Origin: Phoronis australis | Taxonomy: Eukaryota; Animalia; Phoronida | Direction of reading: 5' to 3' | Assembly: GCA_002633005.1 (NCBI GenBank) | Contig: NMRA01000853.1 | Coordinates: 1-64,000 of the forward strand | Length of the DNA stretch: 64,000 bases | Part shown: piece by piece, positions 4,701-53,206 of the stretch | Numbering within the stretch: the stretch's first letter is position 1 | How the letters are laid out: every line of letters starts with the position of its first letter | Program-made: the position numbers and the translations under genes | Notes under the pieces: generated by a model | The model's input: only the letters and a program-made list of their open reading frames with translations | Told to the model about the DNA's origin: nothing | The model's database searches: none

Positions 4701-5078
4701 TATTTTGTCTGTCATAGGGGTTTTAGTTATCTGTGACGTGTATTGAATCATATGGAATTGGTTTTGTTTGGTACCTCGATTGTATATGCTAGCTCATTTT
4801 GGGGGTCCTTTTTGTTTTCTGCCGGGCAAATTCCAGAGTACAATTTGTCTGTCATGGGTCATTTGGTGTTCAGTGCGGTACTATTATTCGTTTTAAATCA
4901 GTTTTGGTTGGTACCTCGAATATCTAGTCTAGCTCATTTTTTGGGCTGTTTGTAAGGCCCCCAGGGGTCACACCCAGAGTGCACACAACGGCAGACGTCC
5001 ATTTCTGTACATACTGTGGTGGACTTTAAATGCTCCCGTGGTCAGATGTTGGTACCTCGTTCATCTATGCTAAGTGCT
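1707..5078 (-). mobile_element. Academ-type DNA transposon, non-autonomous, long TIRs built from tandem subunits, with decayed transposase/XPG-domain remnant
   Basis: Starts TAGACCGGCAGCCCAGAGC; 1707-2630 is inverted relative to about 4200-5078. Internal minus-strand remnants LHAMTGCDVT (about 3650) and DCALLPPCRKTLLNKLKRAHHVA...YGW...PKW (2900-3130). Right terminus truncated. Confidence 0.65.
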
Positions 5079-19500: not shown

Positions 19501-22500
19501 CGTAAAGAGTTTGTGTGTATCACAACCCCTTGGCATTACATACCTGCATACCAACTGGAAAATTTGATCCGCGCCACTCCAATTCATTCATGAAATCCTT
19601 CAAGGAGCCATGCTCCAGATATTCCAGTACCAGACCGTATATACCCTTTCCACCGTCCAAAACGATGCCGTAAATCTTGACTATACTCTTGTGTTCTATT
19701 TCACACATTGCTCGCGCCTCCTTACACGCCAAGATCATCTGCTTGTCACTGAAATTGTTTTAGAAAACATTAGAACAGAAAAAATGAAAAATAGATGAAC
19801 ACCGCTAGTATTGTCTCATGGACACGGCGTCGTTGACGTGGTATATAATGAACGACCAATAGGCACGTCCTGCACTGCACGACTCTCACAATGTTACAAA
19901 TGTGTCAAGCTCTATCCCGGTTTCTCACACACAAATGTCACTGTCTCGGGATATCCTAGGTATTATGAAATCCATCATTACAATGTAGGCAAACTTTGAA
20001 TTACTCCAGTTTAGTTGCACAGCTGACCTCAAGGCAAACACACAAGTATTAGTGCTGGATGTGAAAATGCAGATAAAATCCTGATTGAAAGAGCACACAG
20101 GCTACAACGAGGACGAGGAGTAGAAAGGCCAGTGATAGTTAAGTTTAACAGCTACAAAGATAGAGACATGGTCCTGAGAACTGCTCGTCACCAACTCCGT
20201 GGTACCCAATCCAAAATATCTGAAGATTTCTCGCCAAAAATAAGGGAAAGCAGTAAGAAACTCGGTCCGTTCTGATGGAAGCAAAGACAAAGGGAAATCT
20301 AGTGCGAATGGACTACGACAAACTCACAATAAACGGAAAGGCTTATAAATATGACGACTCCACCAAAAACGTCATTGAGCTCGGATCGGGTCCGCGAAAT
20401 GAATAGGATTTAGGCTGAAGCCTACAGCTAAGAGTGAGTAGTTGGAACATAAATGGGTTAAAAAATAAGTTTAAAAGCAATGACATCACTGACTACATGA
20501 AGTCCTTCGATGTATTAGCACTTCAACAGACAGGGGCAGAAACAGAACAAGATTTCTCGTTAGACAGGTTTGTGTGTTTCAGCAAAGTAAGAACGAAAAG
20601 AAAACGTAGTATAAGGAACTCAGGTGGTGTGCTTATTTTTGTAAAAAACGAATTGTCTGGTTATGTAAATGAGGTGGCATCAGATTCGGAAAATATGATT
20701 TGGATAAAATTTGCTGCTGGTATGAATAAGCCACAACTATATTTAGGGAATGTTTATATTTCCCCTCAGGGTTCCAGGCAGATACCATCAAGTGAGTCTC
20801 AAGATAACGAGTGTAATAGTTATGGTCGGGAGTTACTGTACCTTTGTAAAAGCTGTAGAATTAGAATTTTAAACGGTCGCAGTGGTGGTGATAAAAATAC
20901 CGGTAAATTTACTTTTGTGAATACAAATGGAAGTAGTGTAGTGGACTATTTCATGGTCAGTGATGAAATTATTACATGTACCTCATTCATCGATTTTCAA
21001 GTCGGCGATCAAGTCGACTCCAATCATTTTCCGTTGGAAATGATTATAGATGGCGAAGTTTTGTTTAACTTGCAGGTAAACCGCAACAAAACACGGGAAT
21101 CCTACAGTGTCAATGGAACAATGAACAAATCAGCTATAATTTGGAAAGATGAAAACATAAATAATTATTTTGAAAACTTGCAGTTGAGTGAAGGCGGTGG
21201 CTGTCTGGAAAATATGATATTTACCCGGTTGTTATGTAACCGACTCCATTCATGGGCGGATACGAACAATATTGTGTGTGAGGCTCAAGCTGGTTTCAGG
21301 AAGGGGTATTCCACAGTGGATAACATGTTTATTCTAGATACACTACTTAACAAATATTTATTGAAACGTAGAGGCCGGTTCTATTGTCTTTTTGTTGACT
21401 TTAAAAAAGCATTCGACTGGGTTTGGCGAGAGGGTCTTAAGTATAAAATGTTTTGGAATATATGGAAAAATGCATAAAATTCTAAACAGTATGTATGAAA
21501 ATGTGAAGTCTTGAGTCTTGCTGAATGGGGATGGTTACGTAACCGATTTCTTCCAATGTACGATGGCTGTAAGACAAGGGTGTCAATTATCTCCCTTTCT
21601 CTTCTCGCTATTTATAAATGATTTGAAAAGTGATTTACAAAATGTGAAGGGCTCGTGTGTTAATATCGGAATATTGGATTTATATTTGTTGTTGTTTGCC
21701 GATGATTTGGTTCTCGTCGCTGAAACCGCCATTGCCATGCAAAGAATAATTACCAAACTCGAAGAATATTGTAATAAATGGAAGCTTCATGTGAATATGT
21801 CGAAGACAAAAATTATAGTCTTTAGAAAAGGGGGATACTTGAGAACTTATGAAAAGTGGAAATTATTTGTCGAAATTGTACAAACGACTTCAGAGTATAA
21901 TTATTTGGGTATCAAGTTTACTCCTAAAGGTGTATTTACGAAGGCGCAGAAAACGTTAGCTGACAAAGCGGCAAAGGCTATTTTTGTACTAAAAAGCACA
22001 TGTTAAAGTATAATGAAATTTCTGTGCAAATGTGGTTTAAAATGTTTGATACAAAAATATTACAGATCTTGTTATATGGTTCTGAGATTTGGGGATTTCA
22101 CCCCGCACAAGACATTGAAACCGTACAAAATAAATTTTGCAAATTTTGTTGGGACTTGGTCAGCATGTCTCGAGCGCTGCAGTGAAATAAATGTCTGAGC
22201 AAGACAGGTCTTGCTGGGCTCTAAATGTTAAACGATTGTTATTTCCTTATGGTTTTGGAGTTGTTTGGATACAACAAGGTGTGGGCGATGCTGCCTCGTT
22301 GATAAGTGAATTTAAACAACGATGCTTTGATATTGGCATCCAGGATTGGAGAAACAATATTTTTTCTCAATCTTTAGATGTTTACAAAACAAGTAAATGT
22401 AACTTTGTAGTAGAAAAATACGTAACATGTTTAGAAAATAGACTTCATAGAATAGCCCTTACAAGGTTTAGATGCTCCGCACATTCACTAATGATTATCC

Positions 22501-25500
22501 AGGGAAGGTTCAGTGGATTTGACAGCTAAGACAGATTATGTCCCTGCTGTGACAGTGGGAAAGTGAAAACGGAATTCAACTTTCTTCTCGAATGCAATTT
22601 ATATTTGGATTTACGAGTGCGGTTTTTACCACGGTACGATAAGGTGGAAGATATAGTGTTCAGAAATTTTCTACAGACTCATGACTTAAATGTTCTGAGA
22701 AAAGTTGCTAGATATTTAATTAATCCGGAGAAACGCCGAAACAAGTTCCTTGGTATGAATTAATTTAGACTTGAAAAATTATTGTACTCTCTTTGTGTTA
22801 TATATTGTAATTTGGGCCGGAGGCCTGTTACATGAAATAAACCTTAGGAGTGCCTTAGTCACCAGATGGCGAAACCTTTTCGTTCACGAGTTGGCTGACA
22901 TAGAACTGCCCACCAACATGGAAATCGACTACATATTTCGTGAGTTCGCTCGAAAATAGCTCGACAAAGAGACAATTGACGAGAATGAAACAGAAGCAGA
23001 GGAGGAAGTGGAGACAAAAGACTGTTTAATTAAGTGATAGACATTTTGTATAGCTGTTTAATTATGCTACGCATTTTCTACCTCTCCGACAATGGAGAGT
23101 TCAAACCAAAAGTGGTCTATGGTTTACTTTTGGATCTCTTTGGGTTATTACGTGGGGGTAATTATTTGGCATCCCAGAGAATGATATACCTATATCACAC
23201 AGGTGGCATTCATTCGTCAAATTTAAATTGAGTATTCTTCCCCGTCCCATGGCTCTAAGCGCCAAGGTCGGGTGTCAGCGTTTTCATTTGCTCATCCATT
23301 GGCATGAATAATCCTATCCGATGGTGTTTAACCATGCAACTCTATTTGACAAAGTGGTGCACCTGGTTATATCATCTGCATTCTGATTTTATTTATACAA
23401 TCATCAACTAATGAGCGTCCACTGGGGGATTGGAGTATCTACTGATTTCCCTATTTCTAATGACGTAGGCCTAAGTGAAAGTCATATTGTATTCCTTTAC
23501 TGTTGACAATGACGTCGATGACCTATGTGCCGTGTTAAACAATCTCTGTAAGCCTCGTTTTGGTTTCATTATTCCCCTTAAGAAAGTTAGACCACCTCTA
23601 ACAGCATACGGCCTTATTTCTTATTTATTTATTATTTATTTATTATTGTGATATTTAAAGTGAGGGTGGCCTCTTCAGTGATAGCACTGCTTTACAAGAG
23701 GGCCCTCAAGAAGAAAAACAGTAATATAATACAATGAAGTAATAAAACAACAATAAAATATACGTAACAAAGATACAATTAAAACAGGTTGAGAATTAAG
23801 ACATAAACAAAATGACAAATAATGGTAAAAATTTAACTAAGACAGATGAAATAAATTAAGAGATGACTCTAGACAGTGAGAGTATTTACGACAATGAAAA
23901 AATGACATCTTGATTAAGACAGGTAGGGCATAAATGGTTAGGTAAATTACAGCCACTTTTTAATATTTACTTCAAAGGTAGTGATAGAATTGGACCGTTT
24001 AATTTCTGGGATAAGAGAATTCCATATTATAGCAACTGCATAGATAAAAGATCTCTTGCCCGTCTCGGTTTTAATTTTGTTAAAAGAAAAAATTGCCAGC
24101 AACAGAAGAACGTGTAGAACATACAACTTGGCTGCTATTGAATTTACTGCTGAGATATGCTGGAGCCAAGTCATTGATACATCTGTACATACACCAGGCA
24201 GAGAGATATTTATTTCTTTGTCTTACTTTCATAAATCCCAGTTTGGAATACAAGTCGTCAACCCCAGTGTCCCCAATTCTAGTACCCAGGATAGCCCTGG
24301 CGGCTCTATTTTGGATTACTTGGACTTTGCTGACAAATGTGTCACTAGTGTGCCCCCAAACCGGTAAACAATAATCAATATGAGGCTGAATAATAGAATG
24401 GTAAAGGGTTTTAAGAGTACTGACATTAAGAAATTTGCCTAGACGTTTAAGTACACCGATTTTCTTTGATAATTTCTTTGTGATATGATCTATGTGCATA
24501 TTGAATTTAAGATTGGGATCTAAAATAAGGCCCCAGTACTTAAACTTGTCAACATTCTCGATGGGAGAACCGTTGATAGAAAGGGATAGTTTTTGTTGTT
24601 TTAACTTCTGGTGGGTTCCAAACAGCATCGACTTGGTTTTACTAACGTTAAGAGTGAGTTTACTTTGAATCAGCCAGTAATGGATAAGGGCTAGCTCATC
24701 GTTGAGAGAAGTTTCGAGTTCTTTTACTGATCCAGCTGTTGATATACATGTAATTGCAGTGTCATCAGCGTATAAAACTGGGGCACTGTTGTGGAGGACA
24801 GTAGGGAGGTCGTTAACAAAAATAGTGAATAATTGAGGGCCCAAAATGGAACCCTGAGGTACCCCCGTGATTACGGTTGAGTAGTCAGAAAGTATACCAC
24901 CGTATTTTGTGGCCTGTTTACGGTCGTATAAGTAGTTTCTAAACCAAAGGAGTTCGTTATCATTAACTCCATAAGACTCTAGTTTCTGCAGTAGGATACC
25001 ATAGTCCACAGAGTCAAAGACTTTCTTAAGGTCAATAAAGACAGCACCAGTAAGCCTCCCTGATCCATTTTATTAAAGATTAGCTCAGTAGTATGAATGT
25101 TTGTAGTAAGAGTGGAATGCAAGGGGCGGAAACCAGACTGTGCTGCCGAGAGAAGGGAATTTTGCTCCAGGAACTGGTGAAGCTGCTTTTGAACACACCT
25201 TTCAAGAATTTTTGACACTGCAGGGAGGACCGATATTGGTCTATAATTTTCGCAACTTGACTTTTCATCATCTTTAAAAACAGAAGTAACAACTGCCATC
25301 TTTCATTCTCTAGGAATTGTGGCCGTTTTTAAACTTAAATTCATGATATTGGTAAGGTGCTCAGCTATTTGTTGAGACGCCAGTTTTAATAGTTTGACAT
25401 CAATGCTATCGATGCCACTGGCACTACTAGAGTTCAGAGTTTTTGTTTGTTCTCGAACGTAGTCAACTTGAAACTTAAATGATATTCCCTCTTGTATCTT

Positions 25501-38339: not shown

Positions 38340-39250
38340 TAATGTACTAGAACTGATTGGACCTGTAGTGCCGTTTGATACAATAACATTCTTCAGAAAA
38401 AATTCAAGATGCAGTTATATTTACGAAAAATTCAATAAACTACTTTAAGTATCTGTCCGAAATTTGAAGATAAAATTTTCTGATCGATAAAAAACTGACA
38501 AACATCTATCACGTAGCTTTGAAATGTACTGGTTGCAGTGTAGAACTTTTGGTAGAAATATACTATTTTCTTCAGAAATTAAAAATTAGTGATCTTGACA
38601 TTTCTGAGAGCAAATCGTAACAGCCAGGCTACAAAAAAGTATCTTTTTAGACTTGCTTTTCCCTAGGTTTACCAAAGGTAGAAGTTTTGGCGCTTCAATA
38701 ATAGATTTTTAAAAGATGACGAATACAATAAAAAATGAAAGAGGTTATTCGTAACACGAAAGATATGTAGTACTACGCTCTTTTCCAATATAATAAGGAA
38801 AAAATATCAAATATTTCTCCAGACATGTTGCAATTTACTGAAAATGATCAATCATTTTTTGAAACGTTATTACACTGATAATATTAAAAGTATGACAATT
38901 CCGCATAGTATCTACAAAAAGAAAAGCAGGGTATAGAGATCAGCATATTTAAAAAATGAAATAAAAATGCTACATGCGACTTCATCAGATGGCTTTAACT
39001 GATGCAAATTTGCAAAAGCGTTTAAAGGACTGCCAACAAGAAGTGGAGGATTTTCGAAAAGAATATGTGGAAGGAGTTAAATTAAGACCTAGTGCAAAGT
39101 GGATCGAAGATGGTGCAAAGCCTACACAATACTTCTGTGGCTTTGAAAAAAAAAGTATACACAAGTGACAATTACTAAACAATTGGATAATAAAAATTAG
39201 ATACAATTCACTCATCGATTAAAAGGTTCATTTGAGAACAAGTTATATGT
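38340..39250 (+). mobile_element. L1/Tx1-clade LINE remnants; related fragment at about 41780-42090
   Basis: RPSAKWIEDGAKPTQYFCGFEKK matches the L1/Tx1 linker motif; 38380-38600 is similar to 41790-42030 (LVTNSFLQKLKISNTNICSVC...LEHIF). Confidence 0.6.
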
Positions 39251-39567
39251 AAACCTGTTTAACCTGATCTTCCAACTTATGTGTGCACGTGTTTTCAAGT
39301 CGATAAATTTAATCTCTTTAAGTTCATCGAATTTATGTATATCTATCACGCATGTTATTGGAAAAAAAACCTGTGAACTGATTTTTCTACTTTTTGCATT
39401 GACGTATTCAACAAACACAAAAATGCATTCTGCTTGTATCCTCATGGTATTTAAGATCGTGTGTCATTTCTGAAGCGAGGGCCATACTGCGATCCAAAAA
39501 GATCAACTCGACGACGTCGGATCAGCTACCGCCGTTCACTGAATGTAGTCAGTGCTCATTTTCTAAG

Positions 39568-39615
39568 ATGAAGAGTGAAGATGTTTTTGTCCTGGTTCTC
39601 CTCTTCGCACTGCAG
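39568..39615 (+). CDS. dae4: Dae4-like exon 1: start of signal peptide MKSEDVFVLVLLFALQ
   Basis: ATG followed by a hydrophobic core and donor CAG|GTTTGG; phase 0 joins LSILKVQA-NP of the next exon to complete a signal peptide. Confidence 0.7.
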
Positions 39616-42600
39616 GTTTGGGAATTACATTTCAAGTGTTTCATTTTAAGTGTTACGGGAAATTATTTGAAAAGCGATTTTTTTCGATTAGAAAAATATT
39701 TTACTGCTTACTTAAGACTCGAAAAAGTGAACAAATCTAAGGCAAGCCAATGCTAATCCCTTTTTGTTTCAGTTGTTGTAACTTCCATCACGTTTTTATT
39801 TGTTACTTTTTATACTCGTATTCACGTTATGTATTTATAATATGTTCTCTGTTTGCTTTGATTCTTTGGCAGTATGCTGTGTAAATATGTTCTCGGTTCC
39901 GTTTTTGCCCTTAATATTCTTAAAACCGCATTAGCAACGAAATGCCATTTTAGACCTTGATGGAGTTTTCGTTCGTAAATTACTCTTGCAAATTACAGTT
40001 GGTTGACGCTTATGTAAAGTACTGACGTGCTTCGCGTGTCAGGCATTGATGTCAAACCACATACATGTAGTTGGGTGCGCACGTTAATCCTGTGGCCATT
40101 TATCAAAGAGCCGGAAGAGGGAGCAGTTATCCGTTTTATTGTTTTACATGTACATGTCACCGCAATGTGAGTAGTTATTGACAGTAGGATGGCAGCCTAC
40201 TGATTAACTCACTGCCTCTAATTGGTTTACGATTAGACCACCATATAGAGCAGTTATTGAAAACAGCTAACTAGCCCGAAAAACGCGAACCCCGACCTTA
40301 AAAGGAGGATCCCCTGGATCAGACAAGACAACCGGGGACCGAAACACCACTCCTGTCAAACTTTCTGTCAAACATTGTTTGATGAAAAATAAATCGCCCT
40401 AATTTTTATAGTTGTTTTGATATGTTGTTTTACTACACGAGAATGTTAGACAACTCATGCTGGATTGGCGTTCTACGTTACTGGGCTGCTAAGTGTGGCG
40501 CGATCTTTTGTGTCGGCTGCTATGAAATATTGCGTCATCCATTGGCCAGTTTATCCTAATTCTTCAATCAACTGTTGTTCCACGAAGTTGCGTACATGTC
40601 ACAAGAAATGAAAAACGTGGTTGTTCCTTGTAGTACATGTTCATGAAAGGCCAATAGAGTTTCATAAACTTTCTCATTCTCCGTAGAAAACATTCATTGC
40701 GAACATGCTCGAAATGATAATTTTCAGGTACTCAAAATCTTGCTTACAGTTTGCGACCCCCAAATTGCAGTCCTCCTCACGTTAATGACATTTCAACTAA
40801 CTAGCGAAACTTATTACATTTGGAGCTATTTTCAGCTGTAATTAAAAATAAATTTGCTGGCGTAACTGCTAGGAGAATTATTTCTCTTGCGTTTTTTATT
40901 TCTAAGGAAACGTCTGGCGGAAAGTTTGAACAGTTTGCTGCATCAAACTATCTCCTGCTTTCGCCAATAATTACTAGGCAAAAAACAAGACCACCTTGCC
41001 TGGAATCACTCAGGCGACAATTTATAATAGAAGATATTTTTCCAGGTTGTGGTAATCACAAACCTGAGGACTGGGCGAATTATTCAGACTATAGAACTCT
41101 AGGAATGGAATGCCAACTTGAATGTATCTCGCGCGACTGAGGTTGCGCCGCGCATGAGTGGGTAGTTTCCTTCGCATTTTTCCGGTGTTGTTTGTTGCCA
41201 TAGAATATAACGCTTAGAGTGGAATTTTTGTTTAGTACAAACGAACTACGTTTAGAACTGTTAAAACAGAAGAATTTTCCGAACAAATTCCATGTATATT
41301 CTTGGATTGTCTGGGATCTAATGACTCCAAATGTTGTCAAACAAGAGATCATCTGCTTGTGATTCGGCGATTCGGGAAGCTGGCCGTGGTTACTACCGTC
41401 GCGTAGCTGATTAGCGTAACGTAAAGCCTTCTAGAAGTAAAACAACAATTTCGGAAAATATAAGTACCACCTAAACTTTAATACGATACTAAAATTATGT
41501 ACCTGAGACCAGTAATAACAGAAATATGCTTTGACACTAGACCAATGGGAAAATGTCACCTTCATACTCTAAATATACAGTAAAAGTTTTTCGCGTCTCC
41601 GTAGTTTTTTCAACCAAATTGCATAAGAGTCATGTCATAAGAAAGCCCTTCATGAGCTTTAGGGGTTGTACCTTATAAAAAGAAAAATAAATTAATTCAT
41701 AAATAATTATTATTTTTCATGTCTCATAAGTGAAGAATATTGTTTAATTCTAAAAGCTAAGAGTGAAACCAAAGGTTCCGTTTGGTGTAACTACATTCTT
41801 CAGTAAAAATTCAGGTTGCAACGATATTTACAAAAAAACGTGATAGTCACTAATTATTCTTACTGCCTATGCGAAATTTGTAGATAAAGGTTTCCAAGAG
41901 ATAAAAATGGTCAAACAACTGTTGCAATGCTTTGAAGTATACTGCAGATAGCTCATTATATTGGTTGAATCTTTTCATATAAATTTAGTAACGAACTCAT
42001 TTCTTCAAAAATTAAAAATTAGTAATACTAATATTTGTAGTGTGTGTTACCATAAACAAGAGGCATTGGAACACATTTTTACGGTTGTTATGATACTAAA
42101 GTGGAGCATGAACATAACAAAGAGGCAATGTCATTTCTTAACATTCGAGAATGAAAACACGTGACAACTGGCCTTGAAAAGCATGGCACCCTGATAAAAA
42201 GGCGGTATGTCTGGGTCTATGCCAAAAGGCATGGGTAAATTGTTCGCCGCAATACACAAAAACGCCCCGACATCGTGATTTGTCCAAGGGCAGATTACGG
42301 GTGGCGTAACAACCAAATGCACCCAATGGTGCATCATTATTTTTAGTCGAGCGGAAAATTGCGGGTGCCGCAAAAACCCATGAAGCTTTCATTTGTTGTT
42401 TTTAGTCGAACTGTTTATGATAATGTGCCAATTTTGCCGTATATAAAAAGCGGGCCATTGTGATGGTGTAGCGTGATGGTCTGAAATTTTTTAAAAAGCT
42501 GGACAAGCAGCCAAGAGTGGCAAGATGTCGGTAACAAAAATTATTGGATTGAAAACAAGTCTTTAAACTTGTCTTAGACTTGCATTCAATGTGAAAAGAT

Positions 42601-45600
42601 TTTCTTTTGGATGTGCGTAAGGACAACATTTTTCTTTAGCGGCCTAGAGGAAAACTGTGCCTGACACTTTTCCAGACATTGTTCTGCGAAAGAGCAGAAT
42701 GAAACACTCACATGCATATTGTAAGGTCACAAATTGTTGGCGTAAAGTTTTAGTTTCGTATCTATATGCGAAAAGGATTTCCTTAAAAATTTATGTGCGG
42801 TTTCTGTTTAATACTTGCAAGTAAAACACAAGAAGTTAGGCGATTGTATGCGGTTGTTGTTACATAAGCTGTCGGACTCGGCACGTACGACAATTAGGTA
42901 TGCTGAGTGCGGCAATATATGTTACAAAAACCAGTTGTTATTTCTGTTTCAGCTTTCGATCCTGAAAGTCCAAGCCAATCCCACCAATCCACCAGTGGAC
43001 AACACTCCTTCAACGAACACAATTCCTCCAGTCGACACCACGCCACCAACGGACACCAGTTTGCCAGTGGACACCACTCTGCCAGGGGATTCCGCTCCAA
43101 CAGTGGACACCACTCTGCCAGTGGACATCACTCTGCCAGGGGATTCCGCTCCAACAGTGGACACCACTCCGCCAGGGGACACCACTCCACCAGGGGACAC
43201 TACTCCGCCAGGGGACACTTCTCCACCAGGGGACACTTCTCCACCAGGGGACACCACTCCACCAGGGGACACCACTCCTACACGGGACACTACTCAGCCA
43301 GAGGACACTACTCCACCAAGGGACACCACTCATCCCGAGGACACCACTCCACCAGCAGACAACACTCCTTCTGCATACACCCCTCCGCCAGGAGACACCA
43401 CTACGCCAGCAGACACCACGCTGTCAGCGGGCACTACTCCGCCAGTAGACACTCGGCCAACAATGAGCCTGTCAGTCACTACACAATCGCCGCCTTGTAA
43501 TGAAACAAAAAAGATAGCAGGTATGAACAAGAACCAGTCCACAAACGGTCCCTTTTATGGTGCTGACTTTCTTTTTCGGGTCAGAATTTTATCTCGACGA
43601 CGGACTCGATGGGATAACTGTGACTTGGTTTATAGGCAACACCTAGCATTATTATTCTATTCAGTATTGTGGATGTATGTTGTTATGGTGTAGGAGCTAC
43701 TCTATTACAGCAGTGTTACAGCAGTGTTACAGCAGTGTTACTGCTGGTGCCCAGTCTTTGGTTAGTTTGTCCCTTGTACTGGGGCCACAAATTTCTTAAG
43801 TGGGGTGTCGTCACAGGCGACAGTCCAGCTGCAACGCAAAGGAATAATCTGTTTCAATTTTTACGAACATCATATTCCAAGTAGATATTCATGAGATTCT
43901 GTACAATTAGCTTGACTTAAAGTCGAGCAACACTCACAATCGAAATGAACTTACGTGAGGTAATTCCTACGATAAGTGTTGGCCTATGCCGGAAGTACCG
44001 AAAAAGCACGGGTGCGTATAGTTATCTCTGGCAAACGAGGCAGCAATTGCTTTATAGTTAACTCTGAGTCGCAGAGACAAAACACAAGAAGCCAATAACT
44101 CCAACAACGAAGAGACCGGAAAAAACCGGTCGAAACAGCACCGAAATCCACACGCTAATGATTTACCAGATCTGCGCGCGCATCTCATGTAATCTACTAG
44201 TGAAGTTAGCAGTGAGTTAGAATTAATGCGTGTGGCTCAACCGCACAGCTGAAGAAAACCTATTCGCTAATCTCTCTTATAAAGCACCGATTTCAAAAAA
44301 TCGAAGATAAAAACATTTTCTTTCCCATTTTAACAGTAGCCATGTTGGTCGTCTGCCTTACCTATTGTTCGTTTTTTACTTTAATGATCGTAAACTTAAC
44401 AGGCGCCGACAGCAACTATATCATCCAATACGCATTCGACCACGCCTATAAATAGCGACTAGCCCACATACATCTGTGCTGCTGTCATCTCTCTAGACTC
44501 CGATGGGAGAAGGGACTATAGAAGTAAAGGTTTACCTTCAAACTGTACATAACTTTTCGCAGATTTCAAGTTCAAAGTCGACTTGTGGGCCAAGTATCCA
44601 GACCCCAAGACGTTTCCGAAGGCTGATATGTGGAAAAAGGCGGGGTTTGATAAGAATTACGGAGACACATGTGGGATGAGATTTAGCTACACCCTTTACC
44701 AACTGGGTGAGTAGAAACGTAAGATCAAGCGGTGCATTGGGTCATGAATGATTAGGCCATATAATCACGTTGGTCAATAAACCAAGTCAACAATATAGAG
44801 CGGTGGATCGATCCTGAGGATGATATCAGGTACGCTGCCAGCTCTGCTTTCTTACTAGTTCAAGATTATGGCTGGTGCAGCGTGTAATAAGTCAAGGATA
44901 GCGAATTGAGACATCTGACGTCCGAGCGGCTTGAATGAAACGTGATATTCCATGACTAGGTGGACACCATCACCCAATAGCGGTGTCTTCGTGTGTGTTT
45001 CAGTCAATTAAAGGACACCTACCAGGAGTCGTAAAAAATGTCCCTTTGACTATTATTACAACAACATTGAATATTTATATAAGAAGTAGAGCATTCTGTG
45101 GCAAATGTCTGAATACTGATTGTTTGTTTCGTTTTTATAATTTCTAAAATATACATTTGAGCTATTAAAAAATCTTGGTTTGTTATATTAATAGTGGGCG
45201 ACAGCTCGCCGAATGAGTTACACATAAAAAGGCGCCAATTGTCAAGTGACCGAAAAGACTAAGGCCCGCGGAAAATTCTTATTCTCACCTCCACCAGCCC
45301 ATTGAGCGCTCATACTTCGCCGACAGATTTTGCGGTTAGCTCAGTCACCAGGTGTCGAGAACGTCTGGTGCACGAGTTGACTTGTCCAGATCTAGCAAAC
45401 GTCAAGGAAATCGATATTCGTGAATCTGCTAGAATAGTTCGATAAAGGAGAATTTGCTAGAAAGGGAAGCAGAAGATGTTATCAAAAGAAGAACTTGCCC
45501 CTGAGAATGCTTCTGATGTTCATTATTACAAGATAACACCATGCTTTTCGTCTGAAAATGCTGCATCTGGCTACATGTGGAAAAAATCGGACCGGGTCTA

Positions 45601-48600
45601 AGTGGGCATTAGCTTTGCAAAGTGTTCACAAGTGACAAGATGGCCAGACATGGCTAGAAGTTCTCGCTACACTGTTTTCAATCCCAATGTATGAGTTTCT
45701 GACATGCAATCATCGAATACATTAGTTAGCGCTAAAAGTAACGACAGTAAACGTTATTCAAGTTACTTTTAGTACATGTAGCGTGACTTGACGTTTGTTC
45801 TCTTCACTCAAGCCGCTGTTTTGGCGCGCAGTGAAACATCTGAGCAGGGTAGAAGATCCCCCCCGTCTTCTGCCTATCAAATACATTATGATCACTGACA
45901 ATAAGTAGATTTCTACTGTTCTAATTCAAGTGGAAATAGCAACTCGTTTTGTAGACAGACTGCTCCAAGATTATGTCATCCAAAATTTTCTCTTTTAACC
46001 CCCTCTCCGTCTGTCATCACCCGTCATGACGATATAATCCCACCCGTCCAGTCTCTAATTACGTCATCCCAGTCAACCTCCCCCCATTTCGGAAGAGCCG
46101 GCAGTTCTCTGGAGATTCCATCCCGATGAGTCTTATGACTTATTAATGTATCTTTATAATTTTGACTTACGTTTGCCTTAGTTGTATTTTGCAATCAAAT
46201 AAAGTTGGCCGTTTCAACTATATCAAATCGTCATTCTTCATTTTCATTTTAAAAACACAAGCCGCTGTCCAAGATAATCCAGGAGCAAGAGTTGGATGAC
46301 GCAGTTCGTTGTGAATGGTGACGCATCCCTATTAAAGATGTTAATTAGTCATCTTCGTAGCTTTCATCTGACCTTTCTGGACGAAGACTTTAACGAACAT
46401 GATCTGCTCCACTTGCCTGAGTATGACACATTTCGCAACTTCTGTTGAATTTCAACTATTTTTGACACATCGAGTCTTACAATACCAAACGGTCCTTTTT
46501 AAGGGCCACTTGCGGCTAGCCTCGGGGTCCCAACGTGCGGCAGTTGGCATTCCAAGGCTAGAGGTCTGTGATTTCACACAGTGTAACTTTTTGTAAACCG
46601 CTAACGTACTTCAGAAGTCTTTTGAAATATGCTCCCTAAGAAACTTCCAGAAAGGTAGAATATCCGTGTTGTCTTCTCAGTGTTCTCAAGCTTGCTGATT
46701 TTACCAAATCCAATCGACAACTTCTGTAAATTACAAAATAGACAAACTCGCAAAGTATTTTCATTAACACAACAAAAACCCTTTTAACTTCAGTTTTGAG
46801 AACAATTTTTTTCTATTTTATTCAGAAATGTTCTGTTACCCTGTTTGTGTCGACGACGTTTCCTTTCTCCTAACATAGTATGTTTTCTCATCCATAGTTT
46901 TCGCACCGACGATTCCCTGTCTCAATGTTGTCAGGTAGGCTAACATTGTTTTTTCATGCTCAATGTCCCCCTGCCTGTCTTTGTGGTTCTCCCGTCACGA
47001 CGTTTCCCAGGTTCAAGTTTTCTTGACACCGACGATCCATCTTAAGAATGTCTCCCGGCCTGATACTAAGATATCTTTTCTAAGTTCTACGAAGTTTTAC
47101 GTGATTTTTAATGCTTTTTAATAGCAATTAAACATGTCGGTGAGAGTAGCTTCTTAGATGAAAAGATATTTTACAGGCTACAAGATATGCATCACGAATG
47201 CTGATAACTGTAACTGGTCGGGCTTTAAGAACAAACAAGGTCAAAAATACATCATCAGGGCGGACACTTGGCATTGTTATCTGATCAAGATCTTCAAAAA
47301 ACCGTTGTGCGTAAAGAACAAAGCAAAATTAGCGGTAAGTTATAGGATATAAAACGGCTACGGGCAAAGAAGGCTAGATTTTCCGAAGTAGTTTTCTCAG
47401 GGAATAATAATATTTCATGACCTTCTTCGACCATCTCACCTAATTGTCGTAAACAATGTCAGCGTCTACAATATACAACGGTGAAAAACACGGAGCAAAC
47501 CCTTACCACCCTTCAAAAAACACTTGCTACGCACCTAAGTTAGTTGACATGAGTTTTGTACCGCATTGTTGTGCTGCTAGGGTCAGGTAGTATCCAAACG
47601 CCATTATGTCGGCATGCTCTGATTCGCGAATGGCAATGATTGATACAAACTGGCTCGCGCACGTCATTCACTCAAACTGTATGCGCTGAGAGTGTCTCTG
47701 CGGTTGACAAGAGTGTGGTCAGTGGTTGGAGCTCGTTTCTGCCACCTGACAACGACATGAATTAAAGGCGAAGGCAACCTTTTTCCATGTCATTTTGAGC
47801 TAAAATAAGGTTGGTTGGTTATCCTAGACATATTTTCCACTTAATTACAGCTTTTCGTAATTTTATTAATTACTCGTCCTCTACTCCGGAAGTGACGTTT
47901 TAGGAGGCAAGCGTTTCCCGCCACTTGGTTTTGCGTTGACTTTACCGTGCGAATCTGTTCTATTCTACTTTTGTTTTGTGCTGTTTTTCAACAATTGTCG
48001 CCACCACTTTCCATCGGCGAGTATTCTGCNNNNNNNNNNNNNNNNNNNNNNNNNNNNNNNNNNNNNNNNNNNNNNNNNNNNNNNNNNNNNNNNNNNNNNN
48101 NNNNNNNNNNNNNNNNNNNNNNNNNNNNNNNNNNNNNNNNNNNNNNNNNNNNNNNNNNNNNNNNNNNNNNNNNNNNNNNNNNNNNNNNNNNNNNNNNNNN
48201 NNNNNNNNNNNNNNNNNNNNNNNNNNNNNNNNNNNNNNNNNNNNNNNNNNNNNNNNNNNNNNNNNNNNNNNNNNNNNNNNNNNNNNNNNNNNNNNNNNNN
48301 NNNNNNNNNNNNNNNNNNNNNNNNNNNNNNNNNNNNNNNNNNNNNNNNNNNNNNNNNNNNNNNNNNNNNNNNNNNNNNNNNNNNNNNNNNNNNNNNNNNN
48401 NNNNNNNNNNNNNNNNNNNNNNNNNNNNNNNNNNNNNNNNNNNNNNNNNNNNNNNNNNNNNNNNNNNNNNNNNNNNNNNNNNNNNNNNNNNNNNNNNNNN
48501 NNNNNNNNNNNNNNNNNNNNNNNNNNNNNNNNNNNNNNNNNNNNNNNNNNNNNNNNNNNNNNNNNNNNNNNNNNNNNNNNNNNNNNNNNNNNNNNNNNNN

Positions 48601-51600
48601 NNNNNNNNNNNNNNNNNNNNNNNNNNNNNNNNNNNNNNNNNNNNNNNNNNNNNNNNNNNNNNNNNNNNNNNNNNNNNNNNNNNNNNNNNNNNNNNNNNNN
48701 NNNNNNNNNNNNNNNNNNNNNNNNNNNNNNNNNNNNNNNNNNNNNNNNNNNNNNNNNNNNNNNNNNNNNNNNNNNNNNNNNNNNNNNNNNNNNNNNNNNN
48801 NNNNNNNNNNNNNNNNNNNNNNNNNNNNNNNNNNNNNNNNNNNNNNNNNNNNNNNNNNNNNNNNNNNNNNNNNNNNNNNNNNNNNNNNNNNNNNNNNNNN
48901 NNNNNNNNNNNNNNNNNNNNNNNNNACGCAGCAACAGTGTGGCATGTTGACTGACTAGTAAATGAAAGCAAACGACGACGTAACTTAACACAACCGAGGT
49001 AGAACAATGACTGACTTGGCAGCTCTCACAGTCAGACTATATGAAAAGAAATTGGCGCGAAATGCTTGCCTCCTAAAACGTCACTTCCGGAGTAGCGGAC
49101 GAGTAATTAACAAAATTACGAAAAGCTGTAATTAAGTGGAAAATATATCTAGGATAACCAACCAACCTTATTTTAGCTCAAAATGACATGAAAAAAGGTT
49201 GCCTTCGCCTTTAAAAAGTTGGGCTTCTTGTTTGCCGAACGCTTGGTGACTACAAGTAATAACTTTCAAGTTATATGGCTTTAAAAACATATTTTGTCCT
49301 GTTTAGCAGGTCTCATAATATTCCTTACAGCTACGAGTTCTATTTCCATTACCGGCTCAAGTCACTCTGCGCCATTTTCGAATACGCAATTTTAAAGTAC
49401 ATCTAGGACAACCCCAATAAACTTTTGAAGCGTTTTCTTGAGTAGCTGGTGTTTTCGGGTTTCTTGTTGGTAACTGAACTAAAACCATATCACTGTAAGG
49501 AATATTTAGAGACCAATTTCATGACAGCAAAAATCCTAATTCGGTTTTCGTTTTAAACAGCGAAACAGGGCGAAATGCATCTTTAACACTATGATTTTAA
49601 TTATAAATTAAAAAATATTGCTGAAATTATATCTGTTGACTGCCACGATTGTCAATATATTTCAGGGAAAGAAAGGAATCATTACATTCCGCCACTGCAC
49701 CTGGAAGAACAACCCCAAGCATCCCACAGGACATATCGATTTGTGGGACGGCAAGAACTGTAGAAACAAGTGTTACTTCAAAGAGTGTAAAGAGTATTGC
49801 TTATTCGAGATCCCCAAACCAAAAGCCTTCGGTGAGTATCTTAAAAGTCAAGTTAACTGCATAATGGCAGAGTGAATATTTATTAGACTCTCATGAACCT
49901 GAACAATGCCTTGAACGTTTTGGTGTTACTTATTACACTTGTGTGTCTACTGTATTCACAGAACCCAAGTTTAATGACATCTGGAAGAAGTATCCGAATC
50001 CGAAGATTAAGAAACCCGCCATGTGGAAAAAAGCTGGGTTTGATCAGAAGTATCTATCACACTGGGACACCTGTGGACTGAGGTTTAGTTACGCCACCTA
50101 TAGTTTAGGTAAGTGCCCGTATTGCATTGACAACCAGTCAGAGTCTCATCAGGCACTACACACACCCGTTAGATGTTAAATTGGCTGTTAAAGATAGGAC
50201 ATCTGTTGGCTCATTTGTTGACTAACATACTTTACTGCCGAACGTATACAATGCAGTCGTACCGCCGAGGGCTGTCGTTCTGAATAGCAGTTTCCATGTA
50301 AGTGACTGTGTTTACCCTGAACCCGCGTTTGTGTGAATTGCGTTGAGCGTACCACGATCGTTTGAGACATCTACTAGTTTTTACGGTTTTGCTCCGAGTG
50401 AATTTGAATCATGTTATAAACTGTTTCTGATGATACGATTGTCAAGTGCGCATGTCTATACGTGCGTTGTTACGTGCTGCATGGAAGAATTGCAATAAAC
50501 CAGCAAACTTCGATATGTCTGTTTTGAGCGCGAGACGAGCTTTTTGAGAGACGTGGCAACCGTTTCACTGGCTTTGGTGAAGCTTTGATGAGGTGGGAAA
50601 AATTGCCACGCCTTGTTAAAGATGCGCAGGTTAAGGTAATTGTCAACCTTCGTGAAGCCTTTTTTAGATTCTATAAAACAACTTAACTGTATTTTTAAAT
50701 GCTTGTCTTAAAGCGTGACTGCTCTTTTTGCGAAAGTTATCAATTTTAATTTAAACATGTATTTCTAGAAAATCTGACATTTGAAATACAATCGCACTTG
50801 TTCTTATTGCCAAATACACAGGGAGGTGTGTCTCAGTTTTTCATGTATTCAAAAAAAAAACAGTGAAATCTTTGTTGTTGGACGGAAAACGAAATATCGG
50901 GGATTTTTTTCCTCGGTCATCGAATCAACCAAGGCATTCAAGAGAAATCGACGTCCAAACCTTTTAAAGCGGCGAAAATCAAAAGACCTAGAATTGCCTG
51001 ACGAAGGTTTTCCAGGTATTTGGAATTGATTGAAGTCGTTCAAAACAACTTGCATATTCATGTAATGCGTTTAAAGAAATATTATAGAAGAAATGAAAAC
51101 ATTCCACGAAAGTTGGAAATTTCCAAACATATTTTCAAATTTTAAAGAATGTGTCTATGGAAGAGTGTGACAAATAACAATGGCCAATAATAACCATTAG
51201 TGATATTAGTAGTAGTATTAGTAATAGTATTAGTAATAGTATTAGTAATAGTCCTGTTGGGATATACCGATGATTATTGCATTTTAAGTTTATTTCCATG
51301 CAGTTTAGACTGACATGAACTATTTTTAAGAGGTGTAGATAACCCATAGCATTCAGATATAAGCATGCTCAAGAGAGTTCCCTTTTTTAATACATTTCAT
51401 TTCAAGAAAAACAGATAATTTTATTATTGAAATTACATCTTTAGTTCTACTTTAAAATGAAATACAGGCTTTGGTGAACACTCGGCGATGGGTACCACAA
51501 TTTATGCTATGAACAGTTAACAGAGCTGATGTTGACCACTCCGTTCCTAATGACATCATGCCTGTCGTTTCTTGTTTTACTGCAGGCTACACGATTGGCA

Positions 51601-52253
51601 TAACGAAAGCCGATAATTGTAACTGGTCGGGTTTTAAGAACAAACGGGGTCAGAAATACATCATCAGGGCGGACACTTGGCATTGTTATCTGACGAAGAT
51701 ACTCAAGAAACCACTGTGTGTGAAAAACAGAGCAAAGTTGCAGGTAATTCTCAAATTTTTTTCGGATTTCATCAAGTGTTGTTTTCTCTGAAGTTATTGA
51801 TCCTTTTCCTATGTGCATGGTTCTCAGTGTGGAGTCGAAGACATTTTGTTTACCAAGCTGGATAAAAATATTCAATGCGTGTAGGACTTCGTCTGTGATA
51901 TATCTGGTTCAGTTTCCCTCTCGGTACCTGTACGTTAATTACGTGCTCATTTCGCATACTTACGTTATTGCGCACGTCCAAAATTATTCATAAAATTATG
52001 TCTTGTGTTTGTCTTATAGCGCGTTTTCAAATTTCTTAGCGAAGCCAATAATGAAATTTCTCGCACAAATGTTATCATAAAGCAACTGTTGTTTCAGGGA
52101 AAGAAAGGGATTATAACGTTCCGCCACTGTGCTTGGAAACAAGACCCCAAGCATCCCACAGGGCATGTCGACGTGTGGAATGGGAAGAAATGCAGAAACA
52201 AGTGTTATTTCGACCAGTGCAAGGAGTTCTGCTTGTTTGAAATTTCGAAATAA
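39568..52253 (+). CDS. dae4: Spliced gene (8 exons, 1545 nt CDS, 514 aa): secreted tandem Tae4-like peptidoglycan amidase (domesticated amidase effector, Dae4-like) with N-terminal mucin-like stalk
   Basis: Exons 39568-39615, 42953-43520, 44563-44706, 47177-47334, 49666-49831, 49962-50108, 51586-51743, 52098-52253. All introns are GT-AG and the phases join into one open frame ending at TAA 52251-52253. Tae4 motifs occur twice: DTCG(M/L)RFSY, KYIIRA, GKKGIITF, TGH(I/V)D(L/V)W(D/N)G..C...CYF. AATAAA at 52417-52422. Confidence 0.88.
42953..43520 (+). CDS. dae4: Dae4-like exon 2: end of signal peptide plus Pro/Thr/Asp mucin-like repeat stalk
   Basis: Acceptor tttctgtttcag; open frame LSILKVQANPTNPPVDNT...SPPCNETKKIA; donor G|GTATGA (phase 1). 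Confidence 0.82.
42989..43456 (+). repeat. Coding 18-bp minisatellite, about 26 units (consensus PPGDTT)
   Basis: Unit ccaccaggggacaccact and variants; includes a 54-bp higher-order duplication (LPVD(T/I)TLPGDSAPTVDTT x2). Confidence 0.92.
44563..44706 (+). CDS. dae4: Dae4-like exon 3: amidase domain 1 N-part with catalytic Cys (DTCGMRFSY)
   Basis: Acceptor ttttcgcag; DFKFKVDLWAKYPDPKTFPKADMWKKAGFDKNYGDTCGMRFSYTLYQLG; donor G|GTGAGT; paralogous to exon 6. Not in the ORF track. Confidence 0.9.
47177..47334 (+). CDS. dae4: Dae4-like exon 4: amidase domain 1 middle
   Basis: Acceptor ttttacag; YKICITNADNCNWSGFKNKQGQKYIIRADTWHCYLIKIFKKPLCVKNKAKLA; donor GCG|GTAAGT; 158 nt like exon 7. Confidence 0.9.
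47766..49210. mobile_element. Kolobok-like non-autonomous DNA transposon in amidase intron 4 (about 160-bp TIRs, TTAA TSD), spanning the assembly gap
   Basis: TTAA|AGGCGAAGGCAACC...GGTTGCCTTCGCCT|TTAA; 47766-47923 is inverted relative to 49053-49210. Confidence 0.8.
48030..48925. other. Assembly gap (896 N)
   Basis: Run of N. Confidence 0.99.
49666..49831 (+). CDS. dae4: Dae4-like exon 5: amidase domain 1 C-part with catalytic His
   Basis: Acceptor atttcag; GKKGIITFRHCTWKNNPKHPTGHIDLWDGKNCRNKCYFKECKEYCLFEIPKPKAF; donor G|GTGAGT. Confidence 0.92.
49962..50108 (+). CDS. dae4: Dae4-like exon 6: amidase domain 2 N-part with catalytic Cys (DTCGLRFSY)
   Basis: Acceptor ttcacag; EPKFNDIWKKYPNPKIKKPAMWKKAGFDQKYLSHWDTCGLRFSYATYSLG; donor G|GTAAGT. 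Confidence 0.92.
51586..51743 (+). CDS. dae4: Dae4-like exon 7: amidase domain 2 middle
   Basis: Acceptor ttttactgcag; YTIGITKADNCNWSGFKNKRGQKYIIRADTWHCYLTKILKKPLCVKNRAKLQ; donor CAG|GTAATT. Confidence 0.92.
52098..52253 (+). CDS. dae4: Dae4-like exon 8 (terminal): amidase domain 2 C-part with catalytic His
   Basis: Acceptor gtttcag; GKKGIITFRHCAWKQDPKHPTGHVDVWNGKKCRNKCYFDQCKEFCLFEISK then stop. Confidence 0.92.
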   Translation, partial: GKKGIITFRHCAWKQDPKHPTGHVDVWNGKKCRNKCYFDQCKEFCLFEISK

Positions 52254-52416
52254 CTGTTTCCGTGACTTCACGATCTCACTTGATTATCGTTCATGTAGAA
52301 TCTGAACATGCTACTTAACTGACCTATAGGCCACGTGACAAGTTTGAATATAGTGGCTTTCGCGCTTCCTTCTTACTTGGCAATTTGAGCTGCGTTTGCT
52401 TAAACCCTCCATCTGA

Positions 52417-52422
52417 AATAAA
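52417..52422 (+). promoter_or_regulatory. Putative polyadenylation signal of the Dae4-like gene
   Basis: AATAAA about 165 nt after the stop codon. Confidence 0.5.
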
Positions 52423-52443
52423 CAAAAAAACAAACAACAAGAN

Positions 52444-53206
52444 GCATTGTTATCTGATGAAGATACTCAAGAAACCACTGTGTGTGAAAAACAGAGCAAA
52501 GTTGCAGGTAATTCTCAAAATTTTTTCAGATTTCATCAAGTGTTGTTTTCTCTGAAGTGATTGATCCTTTTCCTATGTGCATGGTTCTCAGTGTGGAGAC
52601 AACGACATTTTGTTTACCAAGCTGGATAAAAATATTCAATGCGTATAGGACTTCGTCTGTGATATATCTAGTTCAGTTTCCCTCTCGGTACCTGTACGTT
52701 AATTACGTGCTCATTTCGCACACTTACGTTATTGCGCACGTCCAAAATTATTCATAAAATTATGTCTTGTGTTCGTCTTATAGCGCGTTTTCAAATTTCT
52801 TAGCGAAGCCAATTATGAAATTTCTCGCACAAATGTTATCATAAAGCAACTGTTGTTTCAGAGAAAGAAAGGGATTATAACGTTCCGCCACTGTGCTTGG
52901 AAACAAGACCCCAAGCATCCCACAGGGCATGTCGACGTGTGGAATGGGAAGAAATGCAGAAACAAGTGTTATTTCGACCAGTGCAAGGAGTTCTGCTTGT
53001 TTGAAATTTCGAAATAACTGTTTCCGTGACTTCACGATCTCACTTGATTATCGTTCATGTAGAATCTGAACATGCTACTTAACTGACCTATAGGCCACGT
53101 GACAAGTTTGAATATAGTGGCTTTCGCGCTTCCTTCTTACTTGGCAATTTGAGCTGCGTTTGCTTAAACCCTCCATCTGAAATAAACAAAAAAACAAACA
53201 ACAAGA
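52444..53206 (+). repeat. Near-identical second copy of 51680-52442 (part of exon 7, intron, exon 8, 3' UTR); probably uncollapsed haplotype or contig overlap
   Basis: Offset 764 nt, junction at a single N (52443), begins mid-exon, few SNPs (T>M in exon 7, G>R at start of exon 8). Confidence 0.85.

What the first reader, a model, noticed from the sequence alone, without database searches (positions are those of the whole stretch)
39568..52253. Intron-containing, secreted, tandem Tae4-like amidase: a domesticated bacterial T6SS toxin with a mucin-like stalk
Seen: eight GT-AG exons splice into a 514-aa ORF with a signal peptide, a repeat stalk and two domains, each carrying DTCGxRFSY, KYIIRA, GKKGIITF and TGHxDxWxGxxCxxxCYF. 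Known: these motifs correspond to the Tae4 family of type VI secretion peptidoglycan DL-endopeptidases (NlpC/P60-like; NACxIRMSY...GKxGII.F...TGHVTLWNG..C...C.F). Horizontally acquired eukaryotic dae genes, including dae4 in marine invertebrates, were described by Chou et al. 2015. Inference: an animal antibacterial enzyme of bacterial origin. I do not know the stalk plus double-amidase architecture from bacterial Tae4 or described Dae proteins. The ORF track shows it only as scattered fragments.
Basis: partly seen in the sequence, partly recalled or inferred. Interest (0 to 1): 0.92.

Follow-up and report, generated by a model that had tools for sequence, protein, structure and literature searches.

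The report
Double bacteria-derived amidase gene in animal
An intron-containing animal gene encodes two copies of a bacteria-derived cell-wall-cutting enzyme domain, predicted to be secreted behind an acidic repeat stalk; it likely works as an antibacterial defence protein like the already tested sea-anemone Dae4, and amphioxus database records show a similar stalk-plus-tandem layout.

Summary
Observation confirmed: eight GT-AG exons give an open 514-aa frame with a hydrophobic N-terminus, an acidic Thr/Pro/Asp stalk and two 75%-identical domains. Each matches Pfam Tae4 above the curated cut-off and keeps the catalytic Cys and His. dN/dS between the two is 0.09, so both are maintained. In a 72-row tree they fall with Nematostella, Exaiptasia, Ptychodera and Branchiostoma homologues (98/85), among them nvDae4, already shown to cut peptidoglycan and kill Bacillus. 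A separate origin is not rejected (AU p 0.11). So this is a Dae4-type gene: a known kind. An uncharacterised Branchiostoma RefSeq protein has a signal peptide, a repeat stalk and three Tae4 domains, duplicated separately. I found no paper describing either. RNA shows the family is spliced at 3 of 7 junction positions, mostly in reads from paralogues. The exon 1-2, 2-3, 5-6 and 7-8 joints were not shown, so the stalk and the tandem product remain predictions. The scan's earlier notes hold no Tae4/Dae4 finding.

The parts
39568..39615 (+). Exon 1: start codon and most of the predicted signal peptide (aa 1-16)
   Evidence: GT donor, phase 0. Most hydrophobic stretch of the protein is aa 6-24. Sense-strand reads in this bin in 1 of 4 runs.
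42953..43520 (+). Exon 2: end of the signal peptide and acidic Thr/Pro/Asp stalk built on an 18-bp repeat (aa 17-205); inclusion in mRNA not shown
   Evidence: AG/GT ends, phases 0 and 1 fit both neighbours. 23.6 copies of an 18-bp unit. Stalk has 25 D/E against 3 K/R. Read depth 0-0.4.
44563..44706 (+). Exon 3: domain 1 N-terminal part with catalytic Cys242
   Evidence: DTCG aligns with the bacterial N-x-C motif. Joint to exon 4 in 4 reads.
47177..47334 (+). Exon 4: domain 1 middle, with the segment shared by animal Dae4 proteins
   Evidence: Sense reads, with differences.
49666..49831 (+). Exon 5: domain 1 C-terminal part with His329, Cys338, Asn340, Cys342; ends in a phase-1 donor where exon 8 has its stop
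   Evidence: Pfam Tae4 30.1 bits, cut-off 27
49962..50108 (+). Exon 6: domain 2 N-terminal part with catalytic Cys399
   Evidence: Joint to exon 7 in 7 reads at the 82% setting.
51586..51743 (+). Exon 7: domain 2 middle
   Evidence: 85% DNA identity to exon 4
52098..52253 (+). Exon 8: domain 2 C-terminal part with His486 and the stop codon; AATAAA follows at 52417
   Evidence: Pfam Tae4 29.8 bits
52444..53206 (+). Second copy of 51680-52442 (part of exon 7, intron 7, exon 8) after a single N: likely an uncollapsed allelic overlap, not a third domain
   Evidence: 13 differences in 763 bases; begins in mid-exon at the N

Best explanation
This is an animal Dae4-type gene whose three domain-coding exons were duplicated, and it is predicted to make a secreted protein with an acidic repeat stalk and two Tae4 amidase domains that likely cut bacterial peptidoglycan as an innate defence. 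Mechanism: the N-terminal hydrophobic stretch would send the protein into secretion (inferred). In each domain His329/His486 would activate Cys242/Cys399 to attack the gamma-D-Glu-mDAP bond of the peptide stem (residues shown; chemistry inferred from Tae4 and nvDae4). With no injection machine, it would act on exposed wall, that is Gram-positive cells or Gram-negative cells with a damaged outer membrane, as nvDae4 does. The strongly basic domains (net about +19 and +22) would draw it to anionic bacterial surfaces. The Thr/Pro-rich stalk, likely O-glycosylated, would hold it in mucus or matrix (both inferred). Shown: gene model, family, catalytic residues, purifying selection on both domains, grouping with animal Dae4. 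Not shown: the full-length mRNA, secretion, activity.
For: Pfam Tae4 above cut-off on exons 5 and 8 alone. Both halves of both domains score 19-26 bits on a bacterial Tae4 profile. PDB sequence search with exon 5 ranks Tae4-type entries first, though weakly (E 0.005). dN 0.13, dS 1.5, dN/dS 0.088 (bootstrap 0-0.17) over 145 codons. All 14 animal rows form one side of a branch, 98/85. A segment pattern chosen after seeing the alignment occurs in 14 of 14 animal rows and 0 of 58 others. nvDae4 (LOC5507694, C63) is among the hits, is 38-39% identical, has the same Asn at the third-residue column, and cleaves peptidoglycan and kills B. subtilis (bioRxiv 10.1101/2021.05.13.443009, passages). Its model matches Tae4 crystal structures in 11 of 11 hits at E<=0.001. 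Intron 5 is only 130 nt, too small for a second promoter and signal exon. Exon reads are stranded to the gene's sense, with joints at three junction positions.
Against: No listed joint for exons 1-2, 2-3, 5-6 or 7-8 (7 joint rows were hidden). The bin holding the start of exon 2 has zero depth in 4 of 4 runs, although the exon 1 bin has reads in X2. Most laid exon reads differ from the window: 10 of 10 minus-strand X1 reads at 47199, 51 of 51 at 49710. They probably come from paralogues, so expression of this copy is not shown. The Asp137 needed by Salmonella Tae4 (PMC3695027) is Asn here. The stalk repeat is open in all three plus frames and its synonymous excess is not significant (15 of 36, p 0.08). 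A tree with the window outside the animal group is not rejected (p-AU 0.11). The window domains sit on a long branch, and domain 1 has an odd composition.
Confidence: 0.72

Rival explanations
1. The locus makes mainly single-domain proteins by alternative splicing: exon 2 to exon 3 with exon 5 as last exon, or exon 2 straight to exon 6. The tandem product is rare or absent.
For: Exons 3 and 6 both start in phase 1, so exon 2 could join either. Reading through the exon 5 donor reaches a stop 14 codons on, with an AATAAA at 50494. The 5-6 joint is not among the listed joints.
Against: Exon 5 has lost the stop found at the matching place of exon 8 and ends in a strong phase-1 donor (G/GTGAGT) that fits exon 6. 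That AATAAA lies beyond exon 6, inside intron 6. Branchiostoma models are read as tandem.
Confidence: 0.13
2. The amidase exons are real, but exon 2 is a non-coding minisatellite or a rarely used exon, so the mature protein has no stalk.
For: Depth over exon 2 is 0-0.4 and exon 1 reads do not continue into it. An 18-bp repeat is open in several frames by itself. The codon-position test is inconclusive.
Against: Exon 1 ends in phase 0 and exon 3 starts in phase 1, so a phase-shifting exon is needed between them. Exon 2 supplies this and completes the hydrophobic signal stretch. A Branchiostoma homologue has a repeat stalk at the same place. The reads mostly come from paralogues.
Confidence: 0.08
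3. The domains are kept as peptidoglycan binders or agglutinins, or for digesting bacterial food, rather than as immune killing enzymes.
For: The third catalytic residue is Asn, not Asp. The long branch shows remodelling. Two basic domains on a stalk would suit cross-linking. There are no data here on tissue or induction.
Against: Cys and His are kept in both domains under purifying selection. nvDae4 has the same Asn and is active and infection-induced. Asp is present in only 12 of 72 rows at that column.
Confidence: 0.06
4. Bacterial contamination or a decaying pseudogene.
For: None beyond the weak read support for this copy.
Against: Seven spliceosomal introns, an intact frame, dN/dS 0.09, and animal-type neighbours (LINE reverse transcriptases, a tyrosine-kinase exon, a PARP14-like frame).
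Confidence: 0.01

Closest known systems
nvDae4 of Nematostella vectensis (LOC5507694; P0051/P0006; bioRxiv 10.1101/2021.05.13.443009)
   Same: Same family and same branch of the tree, 38-40% identity, catalytic Cys-His, Asn at the third-residue column, basic pI, secretion signal (paper).
   Different: nvDae4 is one domain of about 180 aa with no stalk. The window protein is predicted to have a 170-aa acidic stalk and two domains, each about twice as basic and with 9-10 Cys against 4-5.
Branchiostoma floridae XP_035684889.1 (P0044, 657 aa, 'uncharacterized') and hybrid-amphioxus records P0001, P0047
   Same: Signal peptide, Thr/Pro/acidic repeat stalk, then tandem Tae4 domains.
   Different: Three nearly identical acidic domains (pI 4.7-5.1) and a Cys-rich N-terminal module that looks C-type-lectin-like to me (recalled; Pfam gave no such hit). 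The window has two basic domains 75% alike. Each set of repeats groups with itself (100/100, 100/99), and pairing window D1 with the first amphioxus repeat is rejected (p-AU 1e-68), so the duplications look independent. Old gene conversion cannot be excluded.
Bacterial Tae4 T6SS effectors (Salmonella, Enterobacter, Agrobacterium Tae4; Serratia Ssp1; Pfam PF14113)
   Same: Profile match over the whole domain, Cys-His dyad, and the Cys pair matching Cys135/Cys139.
   Different: No T6SS or Tai4 immunity gene, spliceosomal introns, a signal-like N-terminus, Asp137 replaced by Asn, and a different segment before the YIIR strand.
Tick Dae2 (bioRxiv 10.1101/2020.04.10.036376) and Giardia muris Tae4 (PMC7641422)
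   Same: Eukaryotic capture of a T6SS amidase (passages).
   Different: Dae2 comes from another Tae family. The Giardia gene is described as a recent separate transfer and was not in my tree.

Membership tests
Tae4 domain family (PF14113) | Profile match above the curated cut-off | tested here: met
   Exons 5 and 8 alone score 30.1 and 29.8 bits, cut-off 27. The other 5 of 7 exons scanned gave no Tae4 hit on their own. Whole domains score 49.1 and 45.9 bits on a bacterial profile.
Tae4 domain family (PF14113) | Catalytic Cys-His dyad (Cys44/His126 of Salmonella Tae4) | tested here: met
   Cys242/His329 and Cys399/His486 align with it (PMC3695027)
Tae4 domain family (PF14113) | Third residue Asp137 (needed in Salmonella and Enterobacter Tae4; not invariant in the family) | tested here: not met
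   Asn340 and Asn497. The column holds Asp in 12 of 72 rows, Asn in 14 (including nvDae4) and Gly in 23, so this does not define the family.
Tae4 domain family (PF14113) | Cys pair flanking the third residue (Cys135/Cys139) | tested here: met
   Cys338/Cys342 and Cys495/Cys499
Tae4 domain family (PF14113) | NlpC/P60 papain-like Tae4 fold | tested here: inconclusive
   The window protein itself was not folded. The model of the Nematostella relative P0006 (pLDDT 82.9) matches Tae4/Ssp1 structures, E down to 8e-10.
Bacterial Tae4/Tai4 T6SS effector-immunity pair | Bicistronic Tai4 immunity gene and T6SS delivery | tested here: not met
   Intron-bearing gene among animal-type sequence; no such genes among the 78 open frames scanned with Pfam
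Dae4 (domesticated amidase effector 4) | Tae4 homologue integrated in a eukaryotic genome, with introns | tested here: met
   Seven GT-AG introns; animal-type neighbours
Dae4 (domesticated amidase effector 4) | Groups with the animal Dae4 proteins | tested here: met
   14 animal rows on one branch, 98/85; segment pattern in 14 of 14 against 0 of 58. Caveat: a separate origin is not rejected, p-AU 0.11.
Dae4 (domesticated amidase effector 4) | Eukaryotic secretion signal | tested here: inconclusive
   Hydropathy only: aa 6-24 is the top window, mean 2.19. No signal-peptide predictor was available, and the exon 1-2 joint was not seen.
Dae4 (domesticated amidase effector 4) | Expressed and spliced | tested here: inconclusive
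   3 of 7 junction positions seen, mostly in reads that differ from the window
Dae4 (domesticated amidase effector 4) | Cys-dependent peptidoglycan hydrolysis and bacterial killing | not testable with these tools
   Shown for nvDae4 only

The most novel reading that the evidence does not exclude
Animal Dae4, a single old capture shared by cnidarians and bilaterians, has been rebuilt at least twice independently into stalked, multi-headed enzymes. In this animal the acidic stalk (net about -22) would act as a pro-piece masking two very basic heads (+19, +22) until it is cut near Lys202-Lys203. The released cationic amidase could then cross a Gram-negative outer membrane without any injection machine, which described Dae enzymes cannot do.
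Probability: 0.12. Interest if true: 0.8.

Novelty: new variant of a known kind. Interest (0 to 1): 0.45.

Why it matters
It extends a known story, bacterial warfare enzymes kept by animals as immune proteins, by showing what animals did with the domain afterwards: exon-level duplication, addition of a repeat stalk, and a large charge shift, apparently in parallel with amphioxus. It gives ready test proteins for asking whether multivalency or positive charge widens the target range of a secreted amidase. The basic discovery (animal Dae4 is antibacterial) is already published.

Tried and rejected
Word-indexed homologue searches with exon 5 and with the exon 5/8 alignment found nothing among longer proteins; this is weak evidence, and the HMMER search later found relatives. 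Metagenome contig scan: 0 of 105 candidate stretches confirmed. No RNA holder was listed for 49600-52300; the four runs came by species label. No whole genome is held, so paralogues, copy number and host group could not be examined. An alignment of six exon translations with one bacterial Tae4 misaligned and was not used. Pairwise BLAST of exon 3 alone against a bacterial Tae4 was not significant (E 0.33). Atlas look-up of exon 5 gave Tae4-bearing clusters (top score 0.95) but a low recognition value, so it is a lead only. Third domain at 52444-53206 rejected as a likely allelic overlap. Introns of the two exon triplets share no detectable DNA similarity, which fits an old duplication. No kappa-B-like site within 39,000-39,568; the nearest is at 40313 in intron 1, 1 of 11 matches in the window, and is not evidence. 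Window plus amphioxus tandem repeats as one clade: not rejected (p-AU 0.14). Window with the Lys-rich non-animal group: marginally rejected (p-AU 0.045). Chou et al. 2015 is not held, so its list of dae4 hosts and any multi-domain forms in it or its supplements are unseen. PMC13350694 (amphioxus horizontal transfers) has 0 hits for dae, amidase, T6SS or type VI. The earlier scan notes returned concern other families and were not used; two searches were empty.
Full report
Observation. Eight exons on the + strand between 39568 and 52253 have canonical GT-AG ends at all seven introns and give 1545 nt, 514 codons and one terminal stop. The product has a hydrophobic stretch at aa 6-24. Then comes a stalk (aa 25-197) of 28% Thr, 25% Pro and 13% Asp, built on about 24 copies of an 18-bp unit. 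Two domains follow, 112 of 149 identical. Each domain is coded by three exons with the same intron positions and phases, so it arose by duplication of an exon triplet. The introns no longer resemble each other, dS is about 1.5 and dN 0.13 over 145 codons (dN/dS 0.088, bootstrap 0-0.17): the duplication is old and both copies are under purifying selection. The near-copy at 52444-53206 differs at 13 of 763 bases and starts in mid-exon right after a single N. I read it as an allelic overlap of two contigs.

Family. Exons 5 and 8 each pass the Pfam Tae4 cut-off; the other 5 of 7 exons scanned give no Tae4 hit alone. A profile from 15 bacterial Tae4 proteins (L001 plus loci from the 13 of 401 genomes with a match) aligns over nearly its whole length to both domains. 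Scores are 49.1 and 45.9 bits against at most 5.8 for 1000 shuffles, and the N- and C-halves score separately. Cys242/His329 and Cys399/His486 match the Cys44/His126 dyad of Salmonella Tae4, and the Cys pair at 135/139 is kept. Asp137, needed for toxicity in Salmonella Tae4 (PMC3695027, passages), is Asn in both domains. That column is variable: Gly 23, Asn 14, Asp 12 of 72 rows.

Relatives. HMMER with the exon 5/8 profile gave 43 hits at E<=0.001 among 1.84 billion representatives; 2 of the 43 are repeats with no domain match. I looked up names for 20 of the 43, and 6 of these are named animals: Branchiostoma (2), Ptychodera flava (2), Exaiptasia diaphana and Nematostella vectensis. The Nematostella cluster holds LOC5507694, the gene called nvDae4; Cys63 in isoform X2 (counted by eye) matches the published C63A mutant. 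That paper (bioRxiv 10.1101/2021.05.13.443009, passages) reports secretion, cleavage of Gram-negative and Gram-positive peptidoglycan, killing of B. subtilis, and induction by cGAMP and infection. nvDae4 has the same Asn at the third-residue column. A model of the Nematostella protein P0006 matches Tae4 and Ssp1 structures in all 11 hits at E<=0.001. The window protein itself was not folded.

Tree. Of the sequences with a domain hit, 90 domains covered at least 70% of the profile. 82 were distinct, and 72 remained after dropping 10 near-identical or truncated rows. All 14 animal rows lie on one side of a branch (98/85), and the two window domains are sisters (100/100) on a long branch at its base. 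A pattern chosen after seeing the alignment marks 14 of 14 animal rows and 0 of 58 others. One unnamed ENA protein, P0007, is 42 of 45 identical to the Exaiptasia C-terminus. Its similarity starts exactly where window exon 5 starts, after an unrelated stretch ending in Gln; this hints at a shared intron but rests on protein sequence only. Against: the AU test does not reject a tree with the window outside the animal group (p 0.11), and domain 1 has an atypical composition. One old capture is favoured, not proven. The host group was not determined; the window holds LINE reverse transcriptases, a tyrosine-kinase exon and a PARP14-like frame.

Architecture. Among the 112 fetched sequences with a domain hit, 3 have more than one Tae4 domain, and all three are Branchiostoma. 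XP_035684889.1 has a signal-like N-terminus, a Cys-rich module, a Thr/Glu/Pro repeat stalk and three Tae4 domains. So the layout exists in RefSeq as an uncharacterised model. The amphioxus repeats are acidic and nearly identical, while the window domains are basic (pI 9.5-9.8) and 75% alike. Pairing repeats across species is rejected (p-AU 1e-68), though the two lineages as sisters is not (p 0.14). I read this as parallel duplication. Sampling is limited: the profile was short, and the database shows one protein per 50% cluster. Paper searches (listings only unless stated) found no description of tandem or stalked Dae4. Chou et al. 2015 is not held (known to me only from recall and citation), and I read no supplements, so a mention there cannot be excluded.

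Expression. Three raw-read runs (18-19% of each read) and one contig set came by species label. Exon reads are stranded to the gene's sense. At 92% likeness the exon 3-4 joint appears in 4 reads (3 starts, X1). At 82% there are also 35 reads with other letters at exons 3-4, 16 at exons 4-5, and 7 clean GT-AG reads at exons 6-7; 7 joint rows were hidden. Exons 1-2, 2-3, 5-6 and 7-8 are not listed. The bin holding the start of exon 2 has zero depth in 4 of 4 runs, while the exon 1 bin has depth 1.26 in X2. The reads mostly differ from the window (6 of 115 bases over exon 5 in an X4 contig, 9 and 12 of 110 over exon 4), more than the 1.7% between the two apparent alleles, so they probably come from paralogues. 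The family is therefore expressed and spliced at matching places, but the stalk and the tandem joint of this copy are unproven. In their favour: exon 2 is the phase 0-to-1 bridge that the frame needs, intron 5 is only 130 nt, and exon 5 ends in a donor where exon 8 has its stop. The codon test on the stalk repeat is inconclusive (p 0.08).

Mechanism and verdict. Most likely this is a secreted, two-headed peptidoglycan endopeptidase of innate defence acting on exposed cell wall, with basic heads for surface binding and a glycosylated stalk for retention (0.72; activity, secretion and stalk role are inferred). Rivals are single-domain isoforms (0.13), no stalk (0.08) and a binding or digestive role (0.06). 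It is a Dae4-family member with a layout that I did not find described in print but that is paralleled in amphioxus records: a new variant of a known kind, interest 0.45.

Noticed in passing
window 47762-49214: Element with 171-bp terminal inverted repeats (94.7% alike) beginning at TTAA, inside intron 4 and spanning the 896-N gap. Copies like it are heavily read in RNA on both strands. TTAA ends suggest a piggyBac- or Kolobok-type element (recalled).
   Followed up: partly
window 51680-53206: 763-bp direct duplication across a single N, 13 differences, one changing the first codon of exon 8; likely an uncollapsed allele.
   Followed up: yes
window 6394-7614 (-): 407-aa open frame with a weak PARP14 KH hit and the start of a macro-domain-like motif; probably an exon of a PARP14-like gene.
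   Followed up: partly
window 19523-19759 (-): Tyrosine-kinase-family exon (PF07714, E 8e-9); other kinase motifs were not found in the window.
   Followed up: partly
window 20419-22003 (+) and 24083-25069 (-): Remnants of LINE-type endonuclease/reverse-transcriptase elements.
   Followed up: no
window 1700-13600: Nested family of 75-92% identical direct and inverted repeats.
   Followed up: no
P0044 (Branchiostoma floridae XP_035684889.1), P0001, P0047: Uncharacterised amphioxus proteins with three Tae4 domains; P0044 also has a Cys-rich N-terminal module and a repeat stalk.
   Followed up: partly
P0004, P0017, P0019: Unnamed Logan/ENA proteins with signal-like N-termini, Cys-rich repeats, Pro/Ala linkers and one Tae4 domain. 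They form their own clade (100/100) among the non-animal rows; possibly a further eukaryotic capture.
   Followed up: no
P0012 (Ptychodera flava XP_070570416.1): Tae4 domain fused behind DUF6973.
   Followed up: no
P0005, P0011, P0014: Tae4 as the C-terminal domain of RHS-associated proteins, one named as Bacteroidales.
   Followed up: no
runs X1-X4 on exons 3-5: At least two more expressed Dae4-like sequences in this species, judged by contigs with 9 and 12 differences over exon 4.
   Followed up: partly
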